Assembly (NCBI RefSeq): GCF_004010195.1
Contig: NC_057739.1
Location: 35,972,163 to 36,036,162 of the forward strand
Source of the DNA: Chiloscyllium plagiosum
Taxonomy: Eukaryota
Direction of reading: 5' to 3'
Length of the DNA: 64,000 nt
Shown here: in pieces, positions 746 to 56,466 of the stretch
Layout of the letters: each line of letters begins with the position of its first letter
Numbering within the stretch: position 1 is the stretch's first letter
Notes under the pieces: generated by a model
Databases searched by the model: none
What the model was told of the DNA's origin: nothing
The model's input: only the letters and a program-made list of their open reading frames with translations
Position numbers and translations under genes: made by a program

Positions 746-829
746 TAACTCTTTCTCTACCTGCTCGTACCTTATACACTTTCTCAAAAGCATACCCATG
801 TTAAGTGATTCCACAACTGGACAGTTTTT

Positions 830-9000: not shown

Positions 9001-9493
9001 CCTTTTCCTGCCTCCAATTGCCCCTACACAGAATCCACCATTCTCAAGTTTTGGCTTCAAAAATGTGCATGGCATTCCTTCATAAATATCAAACATCAAA
9101 AGTCACAGTCACTTTAGTCATACTGCATACTGCACAGTAACATCATGTACAACACCAGTAATACTCAAAACAATACATAAAAAGGAAGTGCACCAGAAAC
9201 AGCTCAGATTAGTCCATTTTCTACTTCGAGAAACCACCAGAATTTCAGACATTTCATGCTGTTACTCGATCACTCTATATCAATCTGCTAAACCTAAGCT
9301 TGCTTGGTACCTTTAAAAAAACTTCAGTCTTTCGATGCATCTCCTCTGGCTATGTAATAGTGCATCAGTGACAATCTATCATGGCCAGTGTGTGTCCTCC
9401 TGTTCTAGCCAATAACCTTGATTGTCCAAAACAGAGACTTCCAATTGACTAACTCCTTTATGCTTCCCTCCCTATAGGATCACCCACCAGATG

Positions 9494-17309: not shown

Positions 17310-18046
17310 CTCTCAAAATACAGAGGCACGGGATTGAGAGTGATGTAGTGGTTTGGATCAGAAGATCATTAGCTGAAAGAAGACAGAGGGTGGTGGTTGA
17401 TGGGAAATGTTCATCCTAGAGGTCAGTTACTAATGGTGTATCGCAAGGATCTGTTTTGGGGCAACTGCTGTTTGTCATTTTTATAAGTGATCCAGATGAG
17501 GACATAGAAGGATGGGTTAGTGTTGGGATAAAGAATACTGGACTAATGGTAAGATACTTGGTAGTGTAGATGAACAGAGACATCTTGGTGTCCATGTATA
17601 TAGATCCCTGAAAGTTTCCACCCAGGTTGATAGGGTTGTTAAGAAGGCATACGGTATGTTAGCTTTTATTGGTACAGGAATTGAGTTTCGGAGCCATGAG
17701 GTCATGCAGCACTGTACAAAACTCCAGTGTGGCCACACTTGGAGTATTACATACAGTTCTGGTCACCACATTATAGGAAGGATGTGGAAGCTTTGGAGGA
17801 GATTTACTAGGACGTTGCCTAGTATGGAGGAAAGGAAAGGCTGAGGGACTTAAGGCTGGTTTTGTCAGAGAGAAGAAAGCTGAAAAGTGACTTAATAGAG
17901 ACATACAAGATAATCAGAGGGTTAGATAGGGTGGATGGTGATGGCTAGCATGAGAGGACATAGCTTTAAATTGAGGGGTGATAGATATAGGACAGATGTC
18001 AGAGATAGTTTCTTTACTCAAAGAGTAGTAGGGCCATGGAACACAC
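17310..18046 (+). mobile_element. CR1 element, 5' part, interrupted at 18046 by an LTR element
   Basis: RT and C-terminal motifs (QGSVLG, RGHSFKLRGDRYRTDVRDSFFTQRVVGPWN). Stops at catggaacacac; the continuation is on the minus strand at 22050-22226. Confidence 0.88.
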
Positions 18047-19066
18047 TGAGAATGTGCATAGGGAATGAGCAGGTAGGGAAAGAGTTAGGTTTTGAATTTT
18101 GTGAAACAAAAGGTTCAGCTAGAATGACTTTAATCAGATAAGCACTTTCAGTAAACAATGAGATGCTGGAGGCAAGGGTAGTGGATTGCTGAGGTGAAAA
18201 AGTTTCATTATGTAAAGCCATTTAACAAGATAAAGAAGCATTCATTATGTAAATTCAGTTAAACAAGGTGAAAAGCATTCATTATGTGAAGCCAGTTAAG
18301 GTTAAGAACATTCACTGTATAACACCAGATGGCTTAATCTCTACTATTGATACTCACTGATTGCAACAGTCACCCAATCAATTTGAATGTATCCTTATCC
18401 GGATGGTGCTCCCTGTAAGTGATTATATACAGTAATTCCTTGAGGAGAAAGTGAGGACTGCAGATGCTGGAGATCAGAGCTGAAAATGTGTTGCTGGAAA
18501 AGCGCAGGTCAGGCAGCATCCAGGGAACAGGAGAATCGACGTTTCAGGCATAAGCCCTTCTTCAGGATTCCTGAAGAAGGGCTTATACCCGAAACGNTCA
18601 TCTCCTCTGCTCAGAAGCTCTTCAGCCACATTCTCAAACAGACTCGCTACCACAGCCATATCTCCTTCCTCAGCACCTGCCTACGGAACCGACTTATCCT
18701 GCACGGACTCCGGACTACGTTCCGACCAACAAAACTTGGACCCAACCAGGACAACCAGTACCTACAACAAATCCGAAGCCTCCAGCAACAGACCTCCCTC
18801 CGGATCCTTCGCAATTCCTGAAGAAGGGCTTATGCCCGAAACGTCGATTCTCCTGTTCCCTGGATGCTGCCTGACCTGCTGCGCTTTTCCAGCAACACAT
18901 TTTCAGCTACAGTAATTCCTTAAGAATCTACTGTTCGAGAGAAGACCGAGCACTCATGTCCCTGTGCACATGTCCCTCCAGGACCCGGAATAAAGATGAA
19001 GGAGGTAAACCTATACTGTGCTTCTGAGCGTTTTGCTTCAACTGAGGCGGGGACATGACGACAATA
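18047..19066 (+). mobile_element. 5' LTR (about 550 bp plus a 470-bp nested insertion) of an ERV/Gypsy-type element
   Basis: TGAGAATG...GACGACAATA. Colinear with the reverse complement of 22227-22776; AATAAA near 18988; immediately followed by a PBS. Confidence 0.88.
18442..18908. mobile_element. Penelope-like fold-back insertion nested in the 5' LTR
   Basis: TSD acagtaattcctt at 18429-18441 and 18909-18921. Inverted arms carry three hammerhead cores; the interior encodes a PLE N-terminal-like HISFLSTCLRNRLILHGL. One N at 18597. Confidence 0.85.
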
Positions 19067-19067
19067 T

Positions 19068-19085
19068 TGGCATGGTCAGCAGGAT
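19068..19085 (+). other. Primer-binding site, tRNA-Ser-like
   Basis: TGGCATGGTCAGCAGGAT, separated from the LTR end by one nt. 15/18 match to TGGCGTAGTCGGCAGGAT, the complement of the vertebrate tRNA-Ser 3' end (recalled). Confidence 0.75.
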
Positions 19086-19339: not shown

Positions 19340-20075
19340 ATTGAGGACCAAGTCCTTTGCGTTGTACCGGGGTTTAGGTTCCCGGGTTAAAGAGGTCACG
19401 ACCTCCGCGCTGTATTGGGCTTCGAGTCCCCTGGGTCAAATTCAAGTTCAAGTCCTCCGCGCTATTTTGAGTTTTGGGTCCCCAGGTTTTATCGAGGTTC
19501 AAATCCCCCACATTGTACTGGGGTTTGCGTCCCCCTGGGTTAAATTCAAGTTCAAGTCCTCCGTGCTGTATTGGAGTTTGAATCCCCTGGATTTTATTGA
19601 GGTTCAAGTCCTCCGCGCTGTATTTGGGTTTGGGTCCCCAGGATTAAATTGGGGTTCAAGTCCTCCGGGTTTTATCGAGGTTCAAGTCCCCTACGTTTTA
19701 TTGAGGTTCAAATCCTCCACGCTGTATTGAGGCTTGAATTGCATGGATTAAATGGATGTTCAAGTCTTCTGCGCTGTACTGGGGTTCAAGTCCCCCATGT
19801 TTTATCAAGATTCAAGTCCTCCGCGCTGTATTGGGGTTCAAGTCACCGGGGTTAATTTGAGGTTCAGGTCCTCTGCACTTATTTGGCATGGGGGGGTGGT
19901 TAATTGAGGTTCTAATCTTCCGCGCTGTGTTGGGGTTCGAGTCCCCGGGTTAAATGAGATTAGAGTCCTCCACACTGTTTTGGGGTTTGAGTCCTCTGGA
20001 TTTTAGGGAGGTTCAAGTCCTCCACGTTGTATTGGGGTTCGAGTTCTCTGTGTTTAAGTGAGATTCGCAACCTCC
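19340..20075 (+). repeat. 26-bp minisatellite (about 28 units, 52-bp higher order) in the LTR-element leader
   Basis: Core GGTTCAAGTCC recurs at multiples of 26 nt (e.g. 19601, 19653, 19679, 19705, 19783, 19835, 19861), with alternating cctccgcgctgtattgg and ccccgggtt.aattga spacers. Confidence 0.88.
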
Positions 20076-21666
20076 AGTCCCCGTGAGGAGTAAAGTGAGA
20101 AAGGGGTTGAAAACACCCTAATGGTGAAATTTGAGGCTCTGTGAGCCTTTGTTCTGGGGGAAAGAAAGTGGCTTGGACTGTGGCGTTGTGTGGTCCACTG
20201 TGAGGGCTTTCTCTTTTCCTAAGTGTAATTTTAGTGAGAGGATGCTAAAAACAAAATGAGAAACGCTGAAATTAAGGCTGTACTAATACTTGGGTTGAGA
20301 AAGGAAAGTTTCAATGTAAATTGTGCCATGCTGAGAGTGTTTGATGTTTAAAGGTTTTGGTTTGTTAAAACACTGGTTTGGAAAATCCTTTTAAGTAACT
20401 GTTTTACCTTGTTTGAATCAGGATCTCTATTCAATGTGCTTTGTGGGCTATGTAATGGGGCAGATTGTGTTTTTACATTAAAATTGTACAACATTATGTC
20501 CTTTTTAAAATTATCAAACTTGTAACCTTAAAACAAATTGATTGATTTAGTGTCTTTAGCCCCTGACTTGTTTCAAATTCCACAATACCTGTTTAAAAAG
20601 ACCATTGGGTCACTGCTCATGCTTTAGCCAGATGAGAGTATTGAATCATAATATCTTTGCTGCTATGCTTTTACTGCTGAGTGTTCACAAAAAGAAGAGT
20701 GCATTTTGAGTTTGATGCTTTGTGAAGATTTTAGAGAATATTAGAACCTGAGGCTGAGCTGTTTCAGTTCTGTTAATTATTGTTAAGACTTCATTGGCCC
20801 CCTTCATATTGCAAATTCAAAGAATGTTGATCTCTACCAAAGTTGCCACTGCAATTCCGACTGTTTTATTTGGGAAGTTTCATTTGGGGAACATACTTTA
20901 ATATATTCTGCATTTGTTTCCCACAAATATTTTAAATCTTAACTGAAACGGCCTCTTCAATTGCTACAACACAGGAAATGTTTTGTTGTTTTCTTGTTGT
21001 TCTAGATTTTGGAAATACTTTTCCTGACGGCTTTCACATTAGCTAAGTATCAATTTGTTAAAGGAAAATAATTTTTGAATAACCTGAATGGGGTCCCCCG
21101 AGGATTTGATTTTAGGACAAGTGATTGTTGTTTATAATTGACTGAATTGCTTAGGCAGTACAATTTAGAAGTTTATGGATTGTATAAAACTTGATAATGT
21201 CATAATTCGTTAACAGAGTAACAGACTTCAAGAATTCAAAGCATGTTGAAATAGGCATACACTATTTAGTGTAATTAAATGTGTGACTGTCTTCACACTG
21301 ATAACCACCTTGGCAAAGAAGGAATGAGAGAGGAAATGCAAAGATACTTTCAGCAGCTAACATCTTCTCTAGAGTTTCTCCATTCACCGATAAAGCACGC
21401 CTTCGGACCGCCGCCCACCCCTCCACAACCTGATCCAACGGATTCAATCAGCTCCCCAGTTATGAACAGTGAAGAAGTTAACAACAGTGAAGAGCAGATC
21501 GTACACTTTTCGTCAGTGGCCTTCCTGTGGACATTAAACCATGTCAGCTCTACCTTGTCTTTCGATCATTACATGACAACTGCCAGTTGGCTTTGTTACT
21601 TTTAACAGCAGAGTGGGAACAGCAAGGAATGCTGTGCTCACCTAGCCTGCAGCTGCAGGTGCTGCA

Positions 21667-21912
21667 CTGAGGGGCAACCTTTTCACACAGAGGGTGGTGG
21701 GTGTATGGAATGAGCTGCCAAAGAAAGTGGTAGAGGCAGGTACAATTACAGTTTTTAAAAGACGTTTGGACAGGTACATGGATAGGAAAGATTTAGAGGA
21801 AAAGGGCCAAATGCAGATACATGGGACTAGTTCAGTTTAGGAAATCTGCTCAGCACAGACAAGTTGGGCCAAAGTATCTGTTTCTGTGCTGTATGACTCT
21901 GACTCTATGATT
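21667..21912 (+). mobile_element. CR1 3' fragment at the left inversion breakpoint
   Basis: ctgaggggcaaccttttcacacagagggtgg...tatgactctgactctatga; its upstream bases lie on the minus strand at 23220-23230. Confidence 0.85.
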
Positions 21913-22049
21913 CTGAAAAATTCAGTGGTTTTAACTTTCTGGCTTGTTATCTGTTAATATTTCAATTCTACTGCCTACTTATTGCTGCTACCTGCTATGT
22001 GCCAAGGCATCCCTTTGGCTTGGGCTAGTTTTAAACTGCTGTCTGAAAA

Positions 22050-22226
22050 TAGAACATAGAACATTACAGTGCAGTGCAGACTCTTTGGCCCTCGATGTTG
22101 TGCCAACCTGTGGAACCAATCTGAAGCCCAACTAACCAATACTATTCCATTTTCATTCATATGTCTATCCAATGACCATTTAAATGTCCTTAAAGTTGGC
22201 GAGTCTTATACTGTTGCAGGCAGTGC
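22050..22226 (-). mobile_element. 3' end of the CR1 interrupted at 18046, now on the opposite strand
   Basis: Minus strand gcac-tgcctgcaacagt...actttaaggacatttaaatggtcattggatagacatatg...tgttctatgttctat continues the CR1 WN-x-LP frame. Confidence 0.85.
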
Positions 22227-22776
22227 TATTGTCGTCCCATACCCGCCTCAGTTAAAGCAAAATGCTCAGAGACACGGTATAGTTTTACCTCTTTCATCTT
22301 TATTCCAGGCCCTGGAGGGAGAGAGAATTAATGCCCATGTGGACAGGGACATGTTTCTCAGTCTTCTCTCTCAAACAGCAGATTCTTGAGAAATTATATA
22401 GTCACTTACAGGGAGTAGCATCCAGATAGGCAACATTCAAATTGATTGGGTGACCTTTAGAATCAGCAAGGGTCAATAGTAGAGATTAAGCCATCTGGTG
22501 TTTTACAATGAATGTTCTTAGCCTTAACTGGCTTCACATAATGAATGCTTTTCACCTTGTTTAACTGACTTTACATAATGAATGCTTCTTTATCTTGTTA
22601 AAAGACTTTACATATGAAAGATTTTTCATCTCAGCAACCTACTACCCTTTCCTCCAGCACCTCATTGTTTACTGCAAGTTCTTATCTGATCAAAGTCATG
22701 CTAGCTGAACATCTTGTTTCACAAAACTCAAAACCTGACTCTTTCCCTACCTGCTCATTCCCTATGCACATTCTCA
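22227..22776 (-). mobile_element. 3' LTR of the same element, inverted; PPT at 22777-22788
   Basis: Reverse complement of the 5' LTR. On the minus strand it is preceded by the purine tract AAAAGGAGGGAA and followed by GCAC (compare ACAC at 18043-18046, a 4-bp TSD with one transition). Confidence 0.88.
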
Positions 22777-24107
22777 TTCCCTCCTTTTATCATTTCATGT
22801 TAACCTATGGCATTACCAGTTTTCATAAGACTCTTGGAGCCAGTATTTAAGCAAGTTATTGATACACGCATGCAGTGATTATAACAACAAAAAAACTACT
22901 AATCCAATACAGTAAATAGAATTTGAAGAATCCTCCAACATAGGAAAAAGCTCACCAATAAAGTTCTTAAATCCACAGTCCTTTGTGACCACTCCACCCC
23001 CTCTAAGTCAAGTGGAAACGAGCCATTTCTCCAGAATCTCCTACAGTAAAGTCCAACCTGAAACAAAATCCAGTCTGTCCTACTACATCACTCTACGGAG
23101 AAATCTGAATTCTTGGGTAAGGGCAGTTAAATACTTAACAACACTGACGAGACTTCTATCCTTCCGGAGATGCTTCAGATGGAGGATACCAGCACATCAA
23201 CTGTAATTTTGCCCCTCAGGCCCCTCTTAGATAGAGTCATATAGCATAGAAACAGACCTTCAGTCCAACTAGTCCATGCCAACCCATTTCCCAAACTAAA
23301 TAAGTCCCACTTGTCTCCTTAACATATTCTGATTTTCAAACAGTAAACTAAACAATTATGATTAAGAAGCTAAAATCAAAATAAACAAATTTAAGAAAAT
23401 ATTTTCGTCGTGAAGAAGCTTGATATTCTACAATTATAATTCGTTTTATCGGTAAGTATCTTGGTTGGCCCAAATTCTGAAGACGCCATGCTTAAAACCT
23501 ACTCACACTTCTCTCAACAGCATGCAATTGTTTTGAGGAGTTTTAAAGTGAGATTAAAAGTGCAAGAATTTATTTTTGTTTTGCCAAATCATGATTGAAT
23601 TAGAGGGTGCAGTTTTTAGGAACCTTTACAGCAAATGCACTGGAGAGAAACAGAACTGGTGATAACAACATCTGACTTTCCACATTCTTCTACTCATGTG
23701 CCAACTTCCAAAGTTGATATTGGTTTAACTGCAGTAATGGTTCTGAGCATTGACATGTTTTGCAATCATTATCACAATAATATCCAGGCTAATAATTTTT
23801 CAGAATGTAAAGGATTAATCAGAGAGAGGAGGGAATCATGTAGTGGACTGGTTTAATGGGATTTGCTTGTCTAGTAAGTGAAGCTCTTTTTTTTTGCATA
23901 AAAGTTTACTAAGTGTAATGTGAGAGTGGAGGTTTCTAACCTTCAGTTGAAAAGTTTGTTATTCTAAGCCACAATGAACCCCTACTCACTATTGGCTAAT
24001 GAAAGTGAATCAAAGAACTTTACTGAAATTGTTAGCTAAAATAAGATCCAAATTTGATAATGAATTAAAATTTCATCTCAGTAAAGAAAATTAATTTGAA
24101 CACACAT

Positions 24108-24500
24108 TCATAGAGATGTACAGCACGGAAACAGACCCTTCAGTCCAACTTGTCCATGCCAACCAGATATCCCAACCCAATCTAGTCCCAACTGCCAGCA
24201 TCTGGCCCATATCCCTCTAAACCCTTCCTATTCATATATCCATCCAGATGCCTTTTAAATGTTGCAATTGTACCAGCCTCCTCAACTTCCTCTGGCAGCT
24301 CATTCCATACAAGTACCACCCTCTGCGTGAAAAAGTTGTCCCTTAGGTCTCTTTTATATCTTACCCCTCTCACCCTAAACCTATGCCTTCCAGTTCTGGA
24401 CTCTCCCACCCCAGGGAAGAGACTTTGTATATTTATCCTATCCATGCCCCTCATGTTTGTATAAACATCTATAAGGTCACCCCTCAGCCTCTGACACTCC
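24108..24500 (-). mobile_element. CR1 3' fragment
   Basis: ORF RLRGDLIDVY...FFTQRVVLVWNELPEEV...GLEGYGP plus tail. Confidence 0.9.
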
Positions 24501-25160
24501 AAAATGCTTATTAATTAAGAATTTTGATTTTAGCTTACTAACTTGATAATCTGTGCCTTATATGGACTGTTTCTAAACTCTCAATCATATCAGATAAATT
24601 AGTTGTCAAACAGCAGGAATAAAAATGGTATTAAGGGAAACAAGTGGTACCCAAGCAAGAGATTTGGTGGGCTTTCCAAGAAAGAGACATCAGTTAGCTG
24701 GTTAAAACTACAGCATGTTTGATTATGCAACGTTTCTACCTCCTCCCACTGCTCTTCTGGTCTACCATACATTGTTCCCTCTTTCCACTACATCATCAGT
24801 GGCAAAATCTTCAACCTCTTGCTTCTGCCATTCTGGAATGCTCTGCTAATAATCTCCATATTAAATTTCACCTAACCCTGATTCTAAATTCAGAGTATAT
24901 GCACAAAATGGTTGAATTCCAAATTTAATTTGCGAGAGAGCAACTGCTGTCCTCAACTTAAAAGGGCAATTACAGAGATGTGATCAAAGAGTTGTCTAAA
25001 ATGGGCTGGGAAAACAGGCTAAGGGACAAGAGAATGGATGAACAAATATTCCAATAGATATTTCCTAACGCTTAGAAGAAACATATTCCAGACAAAATTG
25101 ACATAATGCAAAGGATGAACTACCTGTGGTTTATAAAGATGGTTAAGTAGAGTTCCAATC

Positions 25161-29512: not shown

Positions 29513-30268
29513 AGTCTGTGAGAAGATTTGTAGCTCGGGTGCTCGTTGTTGTGGTTCTGTTCGCCGAGCTGGGAATTTGTGTTGCAGACGTTTCGTCCCC
29601 TGTCTAGGTGACATCCTCAATGCTTGGGAGCCTCCTGTGAAGCGCTTCTGTGATCTTTCTTCCGGCATTTGTAGTGGTTTGAATCTGCCGCTTCCGGTTG
29701 TCAGTTCCAGCTGTCCGTTGCAGTGGTCAGTATATTGGGTCCAGGTCGATGAGCTTATTGATAGAATCTGTGGATGAGTGCCATGCCTCTAGGAATTCCC
29801 TGGCTGTACTCTGTTTGGCTTGTCCTTTAATAGTAGTGTTGTCCCGGAATGAGGACATGCCGCAACCCAAAGGACTAGCCACACTACCATACNNNNNNNN
29901 NNNNNNNNNNNNNNNNNNNNTAGTGGTTTGTATCTGCCGCTTCCGGTTGTCAGTTCCAGCTGTCCGTTGCAGTGGTCGGTATATTGGGTCCAGATCGATG
30001 TGCTTCTTGATTGAATCTGTGGATGAGTGCCATTGCCTCTAGGAATTCCCTGGCTGATCTACAGATTCTATCAATAAGCACATCGACCTGGACCCAATAT
30101 ACCGACCACTGCAACGGACAGCTGGAACTGACAACCGGAAGCGGCAGATTCAAACCACTACAAATGCCGGAGGAAAGATCACAGAAGCGCTTCACAGGAG
30201 GCTCCAAAGCACTGAGGATGTCACCTAGACAGGGGACGAAACGTCTGCAACTCAAATTCGGCGAACAG
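29513..30268. mobile_element. Penelope (GIY-YIG 3' end) multi-arm fold-back insertion
   Basis: TSD aatattcaagtcaa at 29499-29512 and 30269-30282. Two minus arms and one plus arm (REFLEAWHSSTDSINK.IDLDPIY), hammerhead cores, N gap 29893-29920. Confidence 0.88.
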
Positions 30269-31429
30269 AATATTCAAGTCAAGTTACAAGGGCATAGAGA
30301 GTGTAAAGTTGAAAATGTGAAAAGTTTCCCATAGTGGAGAATGGCTGTTCCTTAATACAGTGCAAATTTGTCCCTTTTGATAGCTGAAAGAGTTTACTGA
30401 GCAAAAAGCAATGTCATATAAGATAAGAAGCTAGTAGAACAGTCAGACAAGTAGGAAGTACATTTTAGCCTGGATAAATTGAGGTGATATTTTGGGAGTG
30501 AAATCATAGTTGCAGATTATTTGACTAGCTAGTTCTATAAAGTACAAAACCTTGTCTAACCTTTAATTCTGTACTAGTGCCCTACAGTTTTCCCATCAGA
30601 GTCCATACTTAAATAACTGGTCTCTTCACAACTAAAATCTAAGTTACAAACCATTTATCACCAGTTGCCCTCTGTGCACTCTTCAGTGCTTTCCTGCTCT
30701 TTTAAATTAAAATAAAAAAATACCCCAGGTCTCTTTAGATGCTGTTAGGACCAGCTGCAAACTTAAGTGTTTTCAGTTGATTCAAATGTACAAATTTATT
30801 TTCTTTTCCTTTTCATTCATGGCATTTTTTCAAAAAGTTGGAGCATTTCATATTTCATGTAATATTCTAAATGTGACTTTATCAAGAAGTGATCTTGGGT
30901 TAGAATAGTCTGTTAAATTGTAATTAAATGAATGTTTGATACAGCCCAGATATCTGCTTCACATTAATTGAAGACTTTAGAGACAATCAAGAGCAATATA
31001 TTGGGATCCTTTTTCACTCTTACCAAAGGCCACTGTGATCCCAAGTTTTGTTTTTCTGTTCAAACATACACAAAAGTCTGGTATTGTTCAGCCATTCAGT
31101 AATTCAAATTTCCCCAAAATAATTACTTGTCCCAAGTACAGTCTATTCCTCAAAGTCTATTAAATCAATTGTTTAATGGTTCAGCTTTTATTAGAAAGAC
31201 TAAATTCAGTCATTGCTGTGCTATTAACCTTAACTCAATATAATTAGATAATACTCAATTTGCATTTTAGCATAAAATATAACAGAGTAGAATTTATTTC
31301 CCAAATTCTAACCGATTAAATAAAGACCAGTCCAGAAAATAGAGTTGAATGATAAAACTAAATTTAAAAAATATACTTTCACTGTTTTTCTTTCAAAGCT
31401 CCATTGCGGGATGTGGACGTCATTAGCTG

Positions 31430-37813: not shown

Positions 37814-38075
37814 TTGACTAAAGGCACAGCCTTAATGATAAGGCTGAGGAAGCAAGAATGCACAGAAGGCTGCAGGGTCAAAGGGATATAAAGGCAGTGA
37901 ATGTGTTTCTAGTGCTGAAGAAATTTATGAGGAGAAAGTGAGGTCTGCAGATGCTGGAGATTGACTAAAGGCACAGCCTTAATGATAAGGCTGAGGAAGC
38001 AAGAATGCACAGAAGGCTGCAGGGTCAAAGGGATATAAAGGCAGTGAATGTATTTCTAGTGCTGAAGAAATTTAT
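37814..38075. repeat. 115-bp direct duplication separated by a 32-bp Penelope terminal tag
   Basis: 37814-37928 and 37961-38075 differ at one base. The spacer gaggagaaagtgaggtctgcagatgctggaga matches the start of the 18442 insertion (one mismatch). Confidence 0.92.
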
Positions 38076-40394: not shown

Positions 40395-41502
40395 GTTTAT
40401 CCGACTAACAATGGATCTCCACAGAAGTTTGACCAGATGGGCCAATGGGCTGAGAAGTGGTAGATGGAGTTTCAGATAAATGCAAGGTGCTGCATTTTGG
40501 GAAAGCAAATCTTAGCAGGACTTATATACTTAATGGTAAGGTCCTAGGGAGTGTTGCTGAATAAAGTGCAGGTTCATAGCTCCTTGAAAGTGGCGTTGCA
40601 GGTAGATAGGATAGTGAAGGTGGCATTTGGTATGCTTTCCTTTATTGGTCAGAGTATTGAGTACAGGAGTTGGGAGGTCATGTTGCGGCTGTACAGAGGT
40701 GGAGTTTAATTCAGTTAAATGCAAGGTGCTGCATTTTGGGAAAGCAAATCTTAGCAGGACTCATACACTTAATGGTAAGGTCCTAGGGAGTGTTGCTGAA
40801 CAAAGAGACCTTGGAGTGCAGGTTCATTACTCCTTGAAAGTGGAGTCGCAGATAGATAGGATAGTGAAGAAGGCTTTTGGTATGCTCCCCTTTATTGGTC
40901 AGAGTATTGAGTACAGGAATTGGGAGGTCATGTCACGGCTGTACAGGACATTGGTTAGGCCACTGTTGGAATATTGCATGCAATACTGTTCTTCTTCCTA
41001 TTGGAAAGATGTTGTGAAACTTGAAAGGGTTCAGAAAAAGATTTACAAGGATTTGCGAGGGTTGGAGGATTTGAGCTATAGGAAGAGGCTGAACAGGCCG
41101 GGGCTGTTATCCCTGGACTGTCGGAGGCTGAGGGATGACCTTATAGAGGTATACAAAATTGTGAAGGACATGGATAGGGTAAATAGACAAAGTCTTTTTG
41201 CTGGGGTCAGGGAGTCCAAAACTAGAGGGTATAGGTTTAGGGTGAGAGGGGAAAGAGACCTACGGGACAACTTTTTCACACAGAGAGTGGTACGTGTATG
41301 GAATGAGCTGCCAGAGGAAGTGGTGGAGGCTGGTACAATTGCAACATTTAAGTGGCATTTGGATGGGTATATGAATAGGAAGGGTTTGGAGGGATATGAG
41401 CCGGGTGCTGGCAGGTGGGACTAGATTGGGTTGAGATATCTGGTCGGCATGGTCGGGTTGGACCGAAGGGTTTGTTTCCATGCTGTACATCTCTATGACT
41501 CT
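40395..41502 (+). mobile_element. CR1 3' portion with an internal tandem partial duplication
   Basis: ORF 40627-41424 is CR1 ORF2 C-terminus; about 40465-40697 is repeated with indels at about 40700-40945. Confidence 0.9.
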
Positions 41503-46943: not shown

Positions 46944-47450
46944 ATGACCAGAACGAAGGACCCAATACCCAGCATGAGCAAAACCAATGTAATGTACAAA
47001 ATCCCATGCAAGGACTGCACAAAACACTACATAGGACAAACAGGAAGACAGCTAACGATCCGCATCCATGAACACCAACTAGCCACGAAACGATACGACC
47101 AGCTACCCTTAGTAGCCACACACGCAGATGACAAGCAACATGAATTCGACTGGGACAACACTACTATTATAGGACAAGCCAAACAGAGAACAGCCAGGGA
47201 ATTCCTAGAGGCATGGCACTCATCCACAGATTCAATCAATAAGCACATCGACCTAGACCCAATATACCGACCACTGCAACAGACAGCTGGAACTGACAAC
47301 CGGAAGCGGCAGATTGAAACCACTACAAATGCCGGAAGAAAGATCACAGAAGCGCTTCACAGGGGCGTCCCAAGCACTGAGGATGTCACCTAGACAGGGG
47401 ATGAAACGTCTGCAACACAAATTCCCAGTTTGGCGAACAGAACCACAACA
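46944..47450 (+). mobile_element. Penelope 3' end (GIY-YIG endonuclease plus terminal repeat)
   Basis: NVMYKIPCKDCTKHYIGQTGRQLTIRIHEH...REFLEAW; hammerhead core at 47374-47413. Confidence 0.92.
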
Positions 47451-54717: not shown

Positions 54718-56466
54718 GTAAAAACAATGACTGCAGATGCTGGAAACCAGATTCTGGATCAGTGGTGCTGGAAGAGCACAGCAATTCAGGCAGCATCCGA
54801 GGACAGGCAAAATCGACGTTTCGGGCAAAAGCCCTTCATCAGGAATAAAGGCAGAGAGCCTGAAGCGTGGAGAGATAAGCTAGAGGAGGGGGGGGGTGGG
54901 GAGAAAGTGGCATAGAGTACAATAGGTCAGGGGGGAAGGAGATGAAGGTGATAGGTCAGGGAGGAGAGGGTGGAGATCGTCAGGAATGTGGTGAGGGGGC
55001 AATGGGGCTGAAAGATAAATACTGGGCTGGGCTGGTGGGAGGGTCACTGGGAAGGCGATAAGAATATGTAGGTGGGATTGATTGTGATATGTCGGAGGGG
55101 AGGGTGGAGTGGATAGTTGGGAAGGAAGATGGACAATTAGTTCAGTTCAAGAGGGCAGTGCGAGGTTGAACGGTTGGATCTGGGAGAGGTTGGTGAGGGG
55201 ATATTTGGAATTTGGTGAGGTCAACGTTGATACTGTACAGTTTGAAGTTTCCAGCTGTCCTATCACCTATCCACTTCACCGTCCTCTCCGACAGATCACC
55301 ATCACACCCCACCTGCATCTACCTATCGTCTTCCAAGCTACCTTCCACACAGCTCCATCCCCACTCTCATATTTATTTCTTCGCACCCTTTCCTCTCCCT
55401 TAACCCCAACTTTCCTGATGAAGGATTTATGCCTGAAACGTCAACTCTCCTGCCCCTCGGATGCCACCAACTTGCTGTGCTTTTCCATGACTACACTATT
55501 CAACTCTCATCTTCAGCATCTGCAGCCCTCACTTTCTCTCGGCCNNNNNNNNNNNNNNNNNNNNNNNNNNNNNNNNNNNNNNNNNNNNNNNNNNNNNNNN
55601 NNNNNNNNNNNNNNNNNNNNNNNNNNNNNNNNNNNNNNNNNNNNNNNNNNNNNNNNNNNNNNNNNNNNNNNNNNNNNNNNNNNNNNNNNNNNNNNNNNNN
55701 NNNNNNNNNNNNNNNNNNNNNNNNNNNNNNNNNNNNNNNNNNNNNNNNNNNNNNNNNNNNNNNNNNNNNNNNNNNNNNNNNNNNNNNNNNNNNNNNNNNN
55801 NNNNNNNNNNNNNNNNNNNNNNNNNNNNNNNNNNNNNNNNNNNNNNNNNNNNNNNNNNNNNNNNNNNNNNNNNNNNNNNNNNNNNNNNNNNNNNNNNNNN
55901 NNNNNNNNNNNNNNNNNNNNNNNNNNNNNNNNNNNNNNNNNNNNNNNNNNNNNNNNNNNNNNNNNNNNNNNNNNNNNNNNNNNNNNNNNNNNNNNNNNNN
56001 NNNNNNNNNNNNNNNNNNNNNNNNNNNNNNNNNNNNNNNNNNNNNNNNNNNNNNNNNNNNNNNNNNNNNNNNNNNNNNNNNNNNNNNNNNNNNNNNNNNN
56101 NNNNNNNNNNNNNNNNNNNNNNNNNNNNNNNNNNNNNNNNNNNNNNNNNNNNNNNNNNNNNNNNNNNNNNNNNNNNNNNNNNNNNNNNNNNNNNNNNNNN
56201 NNNNNNNNNNNNNNNNNNNNNNNNNNNNNNNNNNNNNNNNNNNNNNNNNNNNNNNNNNNNNNNNNNNNNNNNNNNNNNNNNNNNNNNNNNNNNNNNNNNN
56301 NNNNNNNNNNNNNNNNNNNNNNNNNNNNNNNNNNNNNNNNNNNNNNNNNNNNNNNNNNNNNNNGCTCTCTGCCTTTATTCCTGATGAAAGGCTTTTACCC
56401 GAAACGTCGATTTTGCCTGTCCTCGGATGCTGCCTGAATTGCTGTGCTCTTCCAGCACCACTGATC
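54718..56466. mobile_element. Composite Penelope-like fold-back insertion spanning an assembly gap (N 55545-56363)
   Basis: 16-bp TSD cggaagcttctagatg at 54702-54717 and 56467-56482. Near-identical inverted outer arms with hammerhead cores; a more diverged inverted pair inside. Confidence 0.85.

What the first reader, a model, noticed from the sequence alone, without database searches (positions are those of the whole stretch)
21667..23219. 1.55-kb inversion readable to the base, with an 11-bp inverted repeat at both breakpoints
Seen: the two LTRs face each other. The CR1 cut at 18046 resumes on the minus strand after the second LTR, with matching TSD (ACAC/GCAC). CTGAGGGGCAA at 21667-21677 recurs as TTGCCCCTCAG at 23209-23219. 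Flipping the segment restores LTR-PBS...PPT-LTR in direct orientation, the interrupted CR1, and a second CR1 (taagaggggc|ctgaggggcaaccttttcac). Inference: a microhomology-mediated or staggered-break inversion, younger than all three elements.
Basis: seen in the sequence. Interest (0 to 1): 0.7.

Follow-up and report, generated by a model that had tools for sequence, protein, structure and literature searches.

The report
Small inversion with repair-error scars
A 1.5-kilobase stretch of decayed mobile-element DNA, likely from a shark or ray, lies flipped relative to other copies of the same elements, and short copied pieces at its ends point to a likely one-off DNA-repair error, an ordinary kind of mutation.

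Summary
The inversion is real relative to the repeat families it cuts. The two LTRs face each other. A LINE split by the LTR element resumes on the minus strand with a 4-base overlap. In 4 of 4 sequencing runs laid, other copies of the LTR element cross from the left internal part to 23198 on the opposite strand.

The breakpoints need correcting. LTR-family sequence stops at 21669 and 23198, so likely only CTG of the 11-bp inverted repeat pre-existed on the left; the rest is LINE sequence duplicated by the event.

Best reading (0.55): one template-switch or alternative end-joining event, with 3-bp microhomology left and a duplication plus templated insert right. Rivals: coupled to the LINE's insertion (0.17), staggered break plus later deletion (0.13), assembly artefact (0.09), pre-existing 11-bp repeat (0.06).

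No listed contig spans either present junction, so an artefact is not directly excluded. No gene is seen to be affected. A well-resolved example of a known class; low interest.

The parts
17521..18046 (+). LINE 1 (CR1-type; label recalled), 5' part, cut by the LTR element; probably starts near 17330 (by eye)
   Evidence: Reverse-transcriptase C-terminal frames; matches to other in-window LINE copies; contiguity with 22226
18043..18046 (+). Left target-site duplication of the LTR element (ACAC)
18047..19066 (+). Left LTR, itself interrupted by a later insert
   Evidence: 469 of 524 aligned bases equal to the right LTR, K2P 0.114
18428..18921 (.). Later insert in the left LTR with a 14-bp target-site duplication (18428-18441, 18908-18921) and inverted ends; Penelope-like (label recalled)
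19068..19085 (+). Primer-binding-site-like 18-mer starting TGG one base after the LTR (tRNA not identified by any search)
   Evidence: Sequence directly
19349..20066 (+). 26/52-bp tandem array in the leader of the LTR element
20067..21669 (+). Non-coding internal part of the LTR element up to the left breakpoint; multi-copy family
   Evidence: Summed contig depth about 480-2800 over 20900-21606 against 7-9 on the unique flank in X1 (not a copy number); no Pfam family at cut-off in 9 frames
21667..21669 (+). Left breakpoint: CTG, likely 3-bp microhomology shared by the LTR element and LINE 2
   Evidence: Joint 21669 to 23198 in 7 contigs of 3 of 4 runs; LINE homology starts at 21667
21667..21911 (+). 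LINE 2 (CR1-type 3' end), main part, inside the inversion; first 11 bases are the left arm of the inverted repeat
   Evidence: 66-74% identical to six other in-window copies
21744..21753 (+). Likely template of the 10-base insert (AATTACAGTT), 66 bases from the 11-mer
   Evidence: Only occurrence in 64 kb; 0 of 6 other in-window copies carry it, best 8 of 10
21670..23198 (-). Inverted core, 1529 bases
22045..22226 (-). LINE 1, 3' part with tail; GCAC duplication at 22223-22226
22227..22776 (-). Right LTR, now inverted
22777..22788 (-). Polypurine tract next to the right LTR
   Evidence: Sequence directly
22789..23198 (-). 3' internal part of the LTR element; ends at the right breakpoint
   Evidence: Both opposite-strand joints end at 23198
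23199..23208 (-). 10-base likely templated insert at the right junction
   Evidence: Exact inverted copy of 21744-21753; chance 0.0002-0.002
23209..23219 (-). Right arm of the 11-bp inverted repeat; native LINE 2 sequence still attached to its upstream bases
23220..23230 (-). 5' tip of LINE 2, left outside the inversion
   Evidence: 7 of 10 to four in-window copies; 8 of 10 to the loose-end majority at 21667 (by eye)
23231..23313 (-). LINE 3, a separate short CR1-type tail abutting LINE 2
   Evidence: 76% to the LINE 2 tail, 80% to other copies

Best explanation
The segment 21670-23198 lies inverted relative to other copies of the LTR element and LINE that it cuts, and was likely flipped by one error-prone repair or replication event that likely created the 11-bp inverted repeat rather than using it. 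Shown: the inversion relative to the families, the two ends of LTR-family sequence (21669, 23198), the LINE origin of the 11-mer, and the 10-base copy of 21744-21753 at the right junction. Inferred: a DNA end at the left break annealed through CTG to the opposite strand near the 5' tip of LINE 2 and copied about 1.53 kb backwards to the break point. It then returned to the original strand 84-87 bases early, copied 10 bases, skipped 66 and resumed at the 11-mer. This is the 1-3-4-2 template-switch geometry with one extra jump, as in microhomology-mediated break-induced replication or polymerase-theta end joining; the enzyme is not identified. Likely order: LINE 1, LTR element, then the inversion, after LINE 2 was already in place. 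No function is expected.
For: Opposite-strand joints 21669 to 23198 (X1 2 contigs, X19 1, X10 4, X3 0) and 21613 to 23198 (X1 1, X3 1, X10 2, X19 0), 'both' = 0. The 10-mer is unique in the window with its partner 66 bases from the 11-mer; chance 0.00024 for a 100-base neighbourhood, 0.002 allowing 800 sites. It matches this LINE copy (10 of 10) and none of six others (4-8 of 10), and LINE 2 has 18 private bases in 228, so the copy was likely taken from aged genomic DNA. All 21 duplicated bases are identical, which has probability 0.10 at the LTR pair's divergence and 0.009 at 20%. In organism B, record 22 of X19 (15 differences in 296, depth 8.19, like 8.39 on the unique flank) stops at 21669 and runs on for 34 unlike letters, as an orthologue lacking the left junction would. 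Same signatures in print: PMC5453318 (type 1-3-4-2) and PMC8421209 (templates within 100 bp), passages read.
Against: No listed contig spans either present junction; only 32 of 170,687 pieces and 15 of 582 joints were shown. That other copies join 21669 to 23198 with nothing between is inferred: table 5c showed 12 of 193 rows, none for these joints. The X19 record-22 tail was not shown and its depth (8.19) differs from the X19 joint row (6.2), so its orthology and orientation are inferred. The return and skip junctions show no clean microhomology (zero extension on either side of the 10-mer). The right break lies 11-22 bases inside a LINE 5' junction, which chance gives about 0.6-0.7% of the time and which this model does not explain. 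Published four-point events are short local mutation clusters, not 1.5 kb.
Confidence: 0.55

Rival explanations
1. The inversion arose during insertion of LINE 2: the 5' end of the new cDNA joined a second break 1.5 kb away through CTG, while the reciprocal end, after copying 22 plus 10 bases of the cDNA, joined the other side of that break.
For: All duplicated and templated bases come from the 5' 98 bases of LINE 2, and the break lies 11-22 bases inside its 5' junction (chance about 0.6-0.7%). L1 intermediates make inversions and templated inserts at the reciprocal end (PMC11702581, passages) and recombine with distal breaks to give an inversion (PMC13526784, passages).
Against: LINE 2 looks aged (66-74% to other copies, 18 private bases in 228), yet the 21 duplicated bases are identical and include copy-specific letters. 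The likely orthologue in organism B, about 3-5% diverged, lacks the left junction. LINE 2 may, however, belong to a subfamily not sampled in the window. No paper found for CR1 in sharks (0 papers).
Confidence: 0.17
2. Two double-strand breaks, blunt on the left and staggered by 84-87 bases on the right, were filled in and end-joined, giving an 87-base inverted duplication from which 66 bases were deleted later.
For: The 10-mer and the 11-mer stand at the right junction in their original order and orientation. One-sided inverted duplications are described for 12 inversions, shortest duplication 46 bp (PMC1885836, passages).
Against: It needs a second event exactly inside the short duplicate, with no microhomology at the deletion. 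Sequence alone cannot separate it from a one-step template switch.
Confidence: 0.13
3. The arrangement is an assembly artefact, a mis-oriented contig with gap-closing errors.
For: The window has three N runs and palindromic joins beside two of them, typical of short-read assembly. No listed contig of organism A spans either junction, and the best runs hold only 0.41-0.50 of the sampled words.
Against: No N lies within 3 kb of either junction. The junction homologies (3-11 bases) are far below usual assembly word lengths (own knowledge). Both junctions are reciprocal, lose no LTR-element bases (inferred) and include a 10-base insert, which a misjoin would not be expected to make.
Confidence: 0.09
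4. The 11-mer pre-existed in both the LTR element and LINE 2 and the inversion was an exchange between these two inverted copies.
For: The 11-mer is exact and sits at the LINE start. The letters between the two sides of the family joint were not displayed, so a diverged version in other copies is not formally excluded.
Against: Alignments of other copies stop 3 bases into the 11-mer on the left and 10 bases short of it on the right, with 'both' = 0, in 7 contigs of 3 runs. The intervening 10 bases have a template in LINE 2.
Confidence: 0.06

Closest known systems
Four-point template switch, type 1-3-4-2 (Loytynoja and Goldman, PMC5453318; passages read)
   Same: Inverted spacer flanked by a newly made inverted repeat; 23% of 794 human-chimp events in that paper.
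   Different: Here the reversed fragment is 1.5 kb rather than a short mutation cluster, and there is one extra jump of 66 bases.
MMBIR-type templated insertions (PMC8421209; passages read) and polymerase-theta end joining (recalled)
   Same: An insert of 10 bases copied from within 100 bases of the original break; 3-bp microhomology at one junction; germline occurrence.
   Different: No clean microhomology flanks the insert; the polymerase cannot be identified from sequence.
Staggered-break inversions with inverted duplications (Ranz et al., PMC1885836; passages read)
   Same: Sequence from one breakpoint is duplicated in inverted orientation at both ends; the repeat is a product of the event.
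   Different: Duplication of 8-11 bases (87 if later trimmed) against 46 bp to 1.9 kb; inversion of 1.5 kb against chromosomal scale.
Human balanced inversions without breakpoint repeats (10.1101/2021.12.20.472354; passages read)
   Same: Belongs with the 28% (51 of 183) lacking inverted repeats of 50 bp, attributed to alternative end joining, MMEJ or MMBIR.
   Different: Non-human vertebrate; not an L1 twin-priming inversion, which makes up about 85% of human inversions under 2 kb.
LINE-insertion-coupled rearrangements (PMC11702581, PMC13526784; passages read)
   Same: A break at a LINE 5' end with microhomology and extra LINE-derived bases at the other junction.
   Different: Shown for human L1 in cells; here a CR1-type copy that seems older than the inversion.

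Membership tests
Template-switch / alt-EJ inversion with duplication | Segment reversed relative to the ancestral order | tested here: met
   Family joints in 4 of 4 runs; LINE 1 halves contiguous
Template-switch / alt-EJ inversion with duplication | Only short microhomology at the junctions | tested here: met
   3 bases left, none right; direct family join inferred from a cut table
Template-switch / alt-EJ inversion with duplication | Insert templated from within about 100 bases of a break | tested here: met
   23199-23208 equals 21744-21753 inverted, chance 0.0002-0.002
Template-switch / alt-EJ inversion with duplication | Insert flanked by microhomology | tested here: not met
   No extension on either side; at most CAA with two extra A (by eye). 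This lowers the strict MMBIR label
Template-switch / alt-EJ inversion with duplication | Junctions present in primary reads | tested here: inconclusive
   No listed contig spans them; tables cut
Inversion between pre-existing inverted repeats (NAHR or 11-bp microhomology) | Repeat present at both sites before the event | tested here: not met
   LTR-family sequence covers only CTG of the 11-mer; longest nearby homology is 79 bases at 76% between LINE tails, not at the breaks
Staggered-break inversion | One breakpoint's sequence duplicated and inverted at both ends | tested here: met
   11-mer and 10-mer both native to LINE 2
Staggered-break inversion | Duplicate contiguous with its source | tested here: not met
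   66 bases missing between the two duplicated pieces
LINE twin-priming 5' inversion | Inverted piece is part of the LINE transcript, inside one pair of target-site duplications | tested here: not met
   The inverted piece holds an LTR, LTR-internal DNA, half of another LINE and unique DNA
LINE-insertion-coupled inversion | LINE insertion and inversion of the same age, with an empty site in the uninverted allele | tested here: inconclusive
   Break near the LINE 5' end but aged copy with identical duplicates; state of the site in organisms B and C not visible
LTR retroelement (class not assigned) | Two LTRs, primer-binding-like site, polypurine tract, target-site duplication | tested here: met
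   LTR ends read TG and TA rather than TG and CA
Endogenous retrovirus or Gypsy element | gag, pol or env remnants | tested here: not met
   0 of 9 frames and 0 of 8 ORFs reach a Pfam cut-off; 0 homologues for the 108-residue ORF among longer proteins. Class stays open
CR1 clade LINE | Placement by Repbase/Dfam consensus or RT phylogeny | not testable with these tools
   A sister copy (40618-41421) hits 67 proteins, named ones being reverse transcriptases or uncharacterised proteins mostly of sharks, rays and turtle; the name CR1 is recalled

The most novel reading that the evidence does not exclude
A fossil CR1 retrotransposition intermediate in a cartilaginous fish: LINE 2's insertion was resolved at a second break 1.5 kb away, inverting the DNA between and leaving cDNA-derived pieces at both junctions, so that CR1 elements would drive local germline inversions as human L1 does in cells.
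Probability: 0.17. Interest if true: 0.4.

Novelty: new member of a known kind. Interest (0 to 1): 0.2.

Why it matters
Little by itself: it lies in decayed repeats and no gene is seen to be touched. It is a clean teaching case that a short inverted repeat at inversion ends can be the scar rather than the cause, and that multi-copy repeats give the ancestral state without an outgroup genome. If organism B is uninverted it is a usable lineage marker. It would matter more if a genome-wide survey showed such inversions clustering at CR1 5' ends.

Tried and rejected
Own-genome search: no genome is held for this window. Metagenome scan with a 20-base stretch beside the right break gave 1 locus, L001, matching only 25 bases (23173-23197) with no homology beyond; set aside as chance. 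Coding remnants in the LTR element: none at Pfam cut-off (weak Sperm_Ag_HE2 and DUF5318 hits below cut-off dropped), none in a homologue search (weak evidence). Pfam on six other window frames: 0 of 6. Rfam: 0 matches in 64 kb. Hairpins at the breaks: z-scores -0.28, -0.91 and 0.80 for 3 stretches, no unusual structure. Other exact inverted matches of 8-9 bases between the two ends (6 of 8 listed) are LINE-tail homology or chance. Absolute dating was dropped: the shark rate found is per generation (7e-10, PMC10587355, passages) and the species was not determined. Earlier scan notes: 3 answered look-ups, nothing. Twin priming and recombination between the LINE tails were rejected (see membership test).

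Full report
Setting. The window is repeat-rich, about 39% G+C, with N runs at 18597, 29893-29920 and 55545-56363. No genome is held for it. A LINE frame at 40618-41421 hits 67 proteins; named hits include reverse-transcriptase or uncharacterised proteins of Mobula, Leucoraja, Stegostoma, Chiloscyllium, Mustelus, Hypanus and a turtle, so the host is likely a cartilaginous fish. The names CR1 and Penelope-like are recalled and come from no call. The flank 23241-23900 differs from runs X1 and X3 by one letter and two gap letters, so the window is organism A.

The 11-mer at 21667-21677 and its reverse complement at 23209-23219 are exact, unique in the window and not extendable. The LTRs (18047-19066 and 22776-22227) lie on opposite strands; 469 of 524 aligned bases agree, K2P 0.114. 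A primer-binding-like site follows the left LTR and a polypurine tract precedes the right one on the minus strand. LINE 1 stops at 18046 and resumes at 22226 on the minus strand. On the intact copy at 24100-24520 the halves overlap by four bases, the ACAC/GCAC duplication; three other copies gave shorter alignments, one no better than its control. Independently, the loose-end majority of 102 contigs at 22223 in X3 matches 18016-18045 at 25 of 30 (by eye). The bases upstream of the 11-mer in six intact LINE copies fit 23220-23229 (7,7,7,7,5,4 of 10) and not the present left flank (0-2 of 10). An 11-bp inverted match somewhere in this region is common (42% of 1899 trials), but with one end fixed at the LINE start it is 0.00045.

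Other copies fix the ancestral order. I laid 4 of the 24 listed runs (X1 and X3 of organism A, X19 of B, X10 of C; all contigs, likeness 85) on 20900-23900. The LTR element is multi-copy in all four. Two opposite-strand joints are among the 15 of 582 rows shown: 21669 to 23198 (2, 0, 1 and 4 contigs in X1, X3, X19, X10) and 21613 to 23198 (1, 1, 0, 2), both with no shared letters. So the window's copy is the inverted one, and family sequence ends three bases into the 11-mer on the left and ten bases before it on the right. That nothing lies between the two sides is inferred: table 5c shows 12 of 193 rows, down to depth 53, and four X10 contigs summing to 208 would very likely have appeared there had they carried letters between.

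Bases 23199-23208 are the exact inverted copy of 21744-21753, which lies inside LINE 2, 66 bases from the 11-mer; each occurs once in the window. Chance is 0.00024 for a 100-base neighbourhood and 0.002 for 800 sites. None of six other in-window LINE copies has this 10-mer (4-8 of 10), so it likely came from this copy. In the ancestral order that template lay just inside the right break and in the orientation the insert has now. The anatomy is thus: left junction with 3-bp microhomology; inverted core of 1529 bases; right junction with 10 templated and 8 duplicated bases. The 11-bp inverted repeat is likely CTG plus a duplication made by the event.

Mechanism. The simplest single event is a template switch: a 3' end at the left break anneals through CTG to the opposite strand, copies the segment backwards to the break point, returns 84-87 bases early, copies ten bases and skips 66. 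[quoted passage not shown] All of these steps are inferred. Against it, the insert has no clean microhomology and published four-point events are short. A one-sided staggered break (PMC1885836, passages) followed by a 66-base deletion gives the same product in two steps. In humans 51 of 183 resolved balanced inversions lack breakpoint repeats, and the complex ones are ascribed to such repair (10.1101/2021.12.20.472354, passages).

Age. The inversion is younger than LINE 1 and the LTR element. All 21 duplicated bases are identical (probability 0.10 at the LTR pair's divergence, 0.48 at 3.4%), which is weak support for youth. In organism B, three X19 contigs are 95-97% alike with depths 8.19, 8.57 and 8.39, against 87-90% for the five other listed X19 pieces; the one at 21374-21669 stops at 21669 with 34 letters left that do not follow the window. 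The simplest reading is an orthologue without the left junction, which would put the inversion after the A-B split. Its tail was not shown and it is not the contig of the X19 joint row (depth 6.2), so this is inferred.

The strongest rival. The right break is 11-22 bases inside the 5' junction of LINE 2, which chance gives about 0.6-0.7% of the time for 9-10 such ends in 63 kb (a test chosen after seeing the data). All extra bases come from that LINE's 5' part. L1 intermediates produce inversions and templated inserts (PMC11702581; PMC13526784; passages). An insertion-coupled event is therefore credible (0.17). Against it, LINE 2 has 18 private bases in 228 while its duplicates are exact, though it may belong to an unsampled subfamily. 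A search for CR1, retrotransposition, inversion, shark genome and breakpoint found 0 papers; one for endogenous retrovirus, shark, Chiloscyllium and LTR listed 3, none on this element by title or abstract start. Supplements were not read.

Artefact. No listed piece spans either present junction (32 of 170,687 shown), and the assembly has palindromic joins beside N runs elsewhere. But no N lies within 3 kb of the junctions, and reciprocal junctions with 3-11 bases of homology and a templated insert are not what misjoins are expected to give (own knowledge). I put this at 0.09.

The LTR element has no recognisable coding remnant and its class is open. No RNA family or unusual hairpin marks the site.

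Noticed in passing
window 18428-18921: Penelope-like insert (label recalled) in the left LTR with a 14-bp target-site duplication, inverted terminal pieces (18478-18567 / 18816-18908, 96%) and a 57-base near-palindrome at 18540-18596 ending at a single N; family copies recur at 9490, 25217, 31498, 54714 and 56364.
   Followed up: partly
window 29547-30270: Repeat with a 240-base self-inverted stretch (29921-30160, 88%) directly after a 28-N gap and 91-95% alike to 47152-47450; likely a Penelope-type inverted end, perhaps partly an assembly join.
   Followed up: no
window 37814-37928 and 37961-38075: Direct duplicate of 115 bases at 99% identity; recent duplication or assembly overlap.
   Followed up: no
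window 40471-40696 and 40710-40946: Tandem duplicate of about 230 bases at 88% inside a LINE copy.
   Followed up: no
window 19349-20066; 18192-18314 and 22524-22625: The LTR element has a 26/52-bp array in its leader and a 37-bp array in each LTR; its LTR ends read TG and TA rather than TG and CA.
   Followed up: partly
window 21613 to 23198: A second opposite-strand joint in 4 contigs of 3 runs suggests a subfamily of the LTR element that differs or is shorter over 21614-21669.
   Followed up: no
P0001 and P0005: The best relative of the window's LINE frame (83% identity) is labelled Proteus mirabilis and another Klebsiella pneumoniae, on contigs of about 1.6-1.7 kb; likely vertebrate DNA contaminating bacterial assemblies.
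   Followed up: no
window 746-786: 41 bases 85% alike to the start of the LTR, on the minus strand between two LINE tails; a short LTR remnant or a related purine-rich motif.
   Followed up: partly
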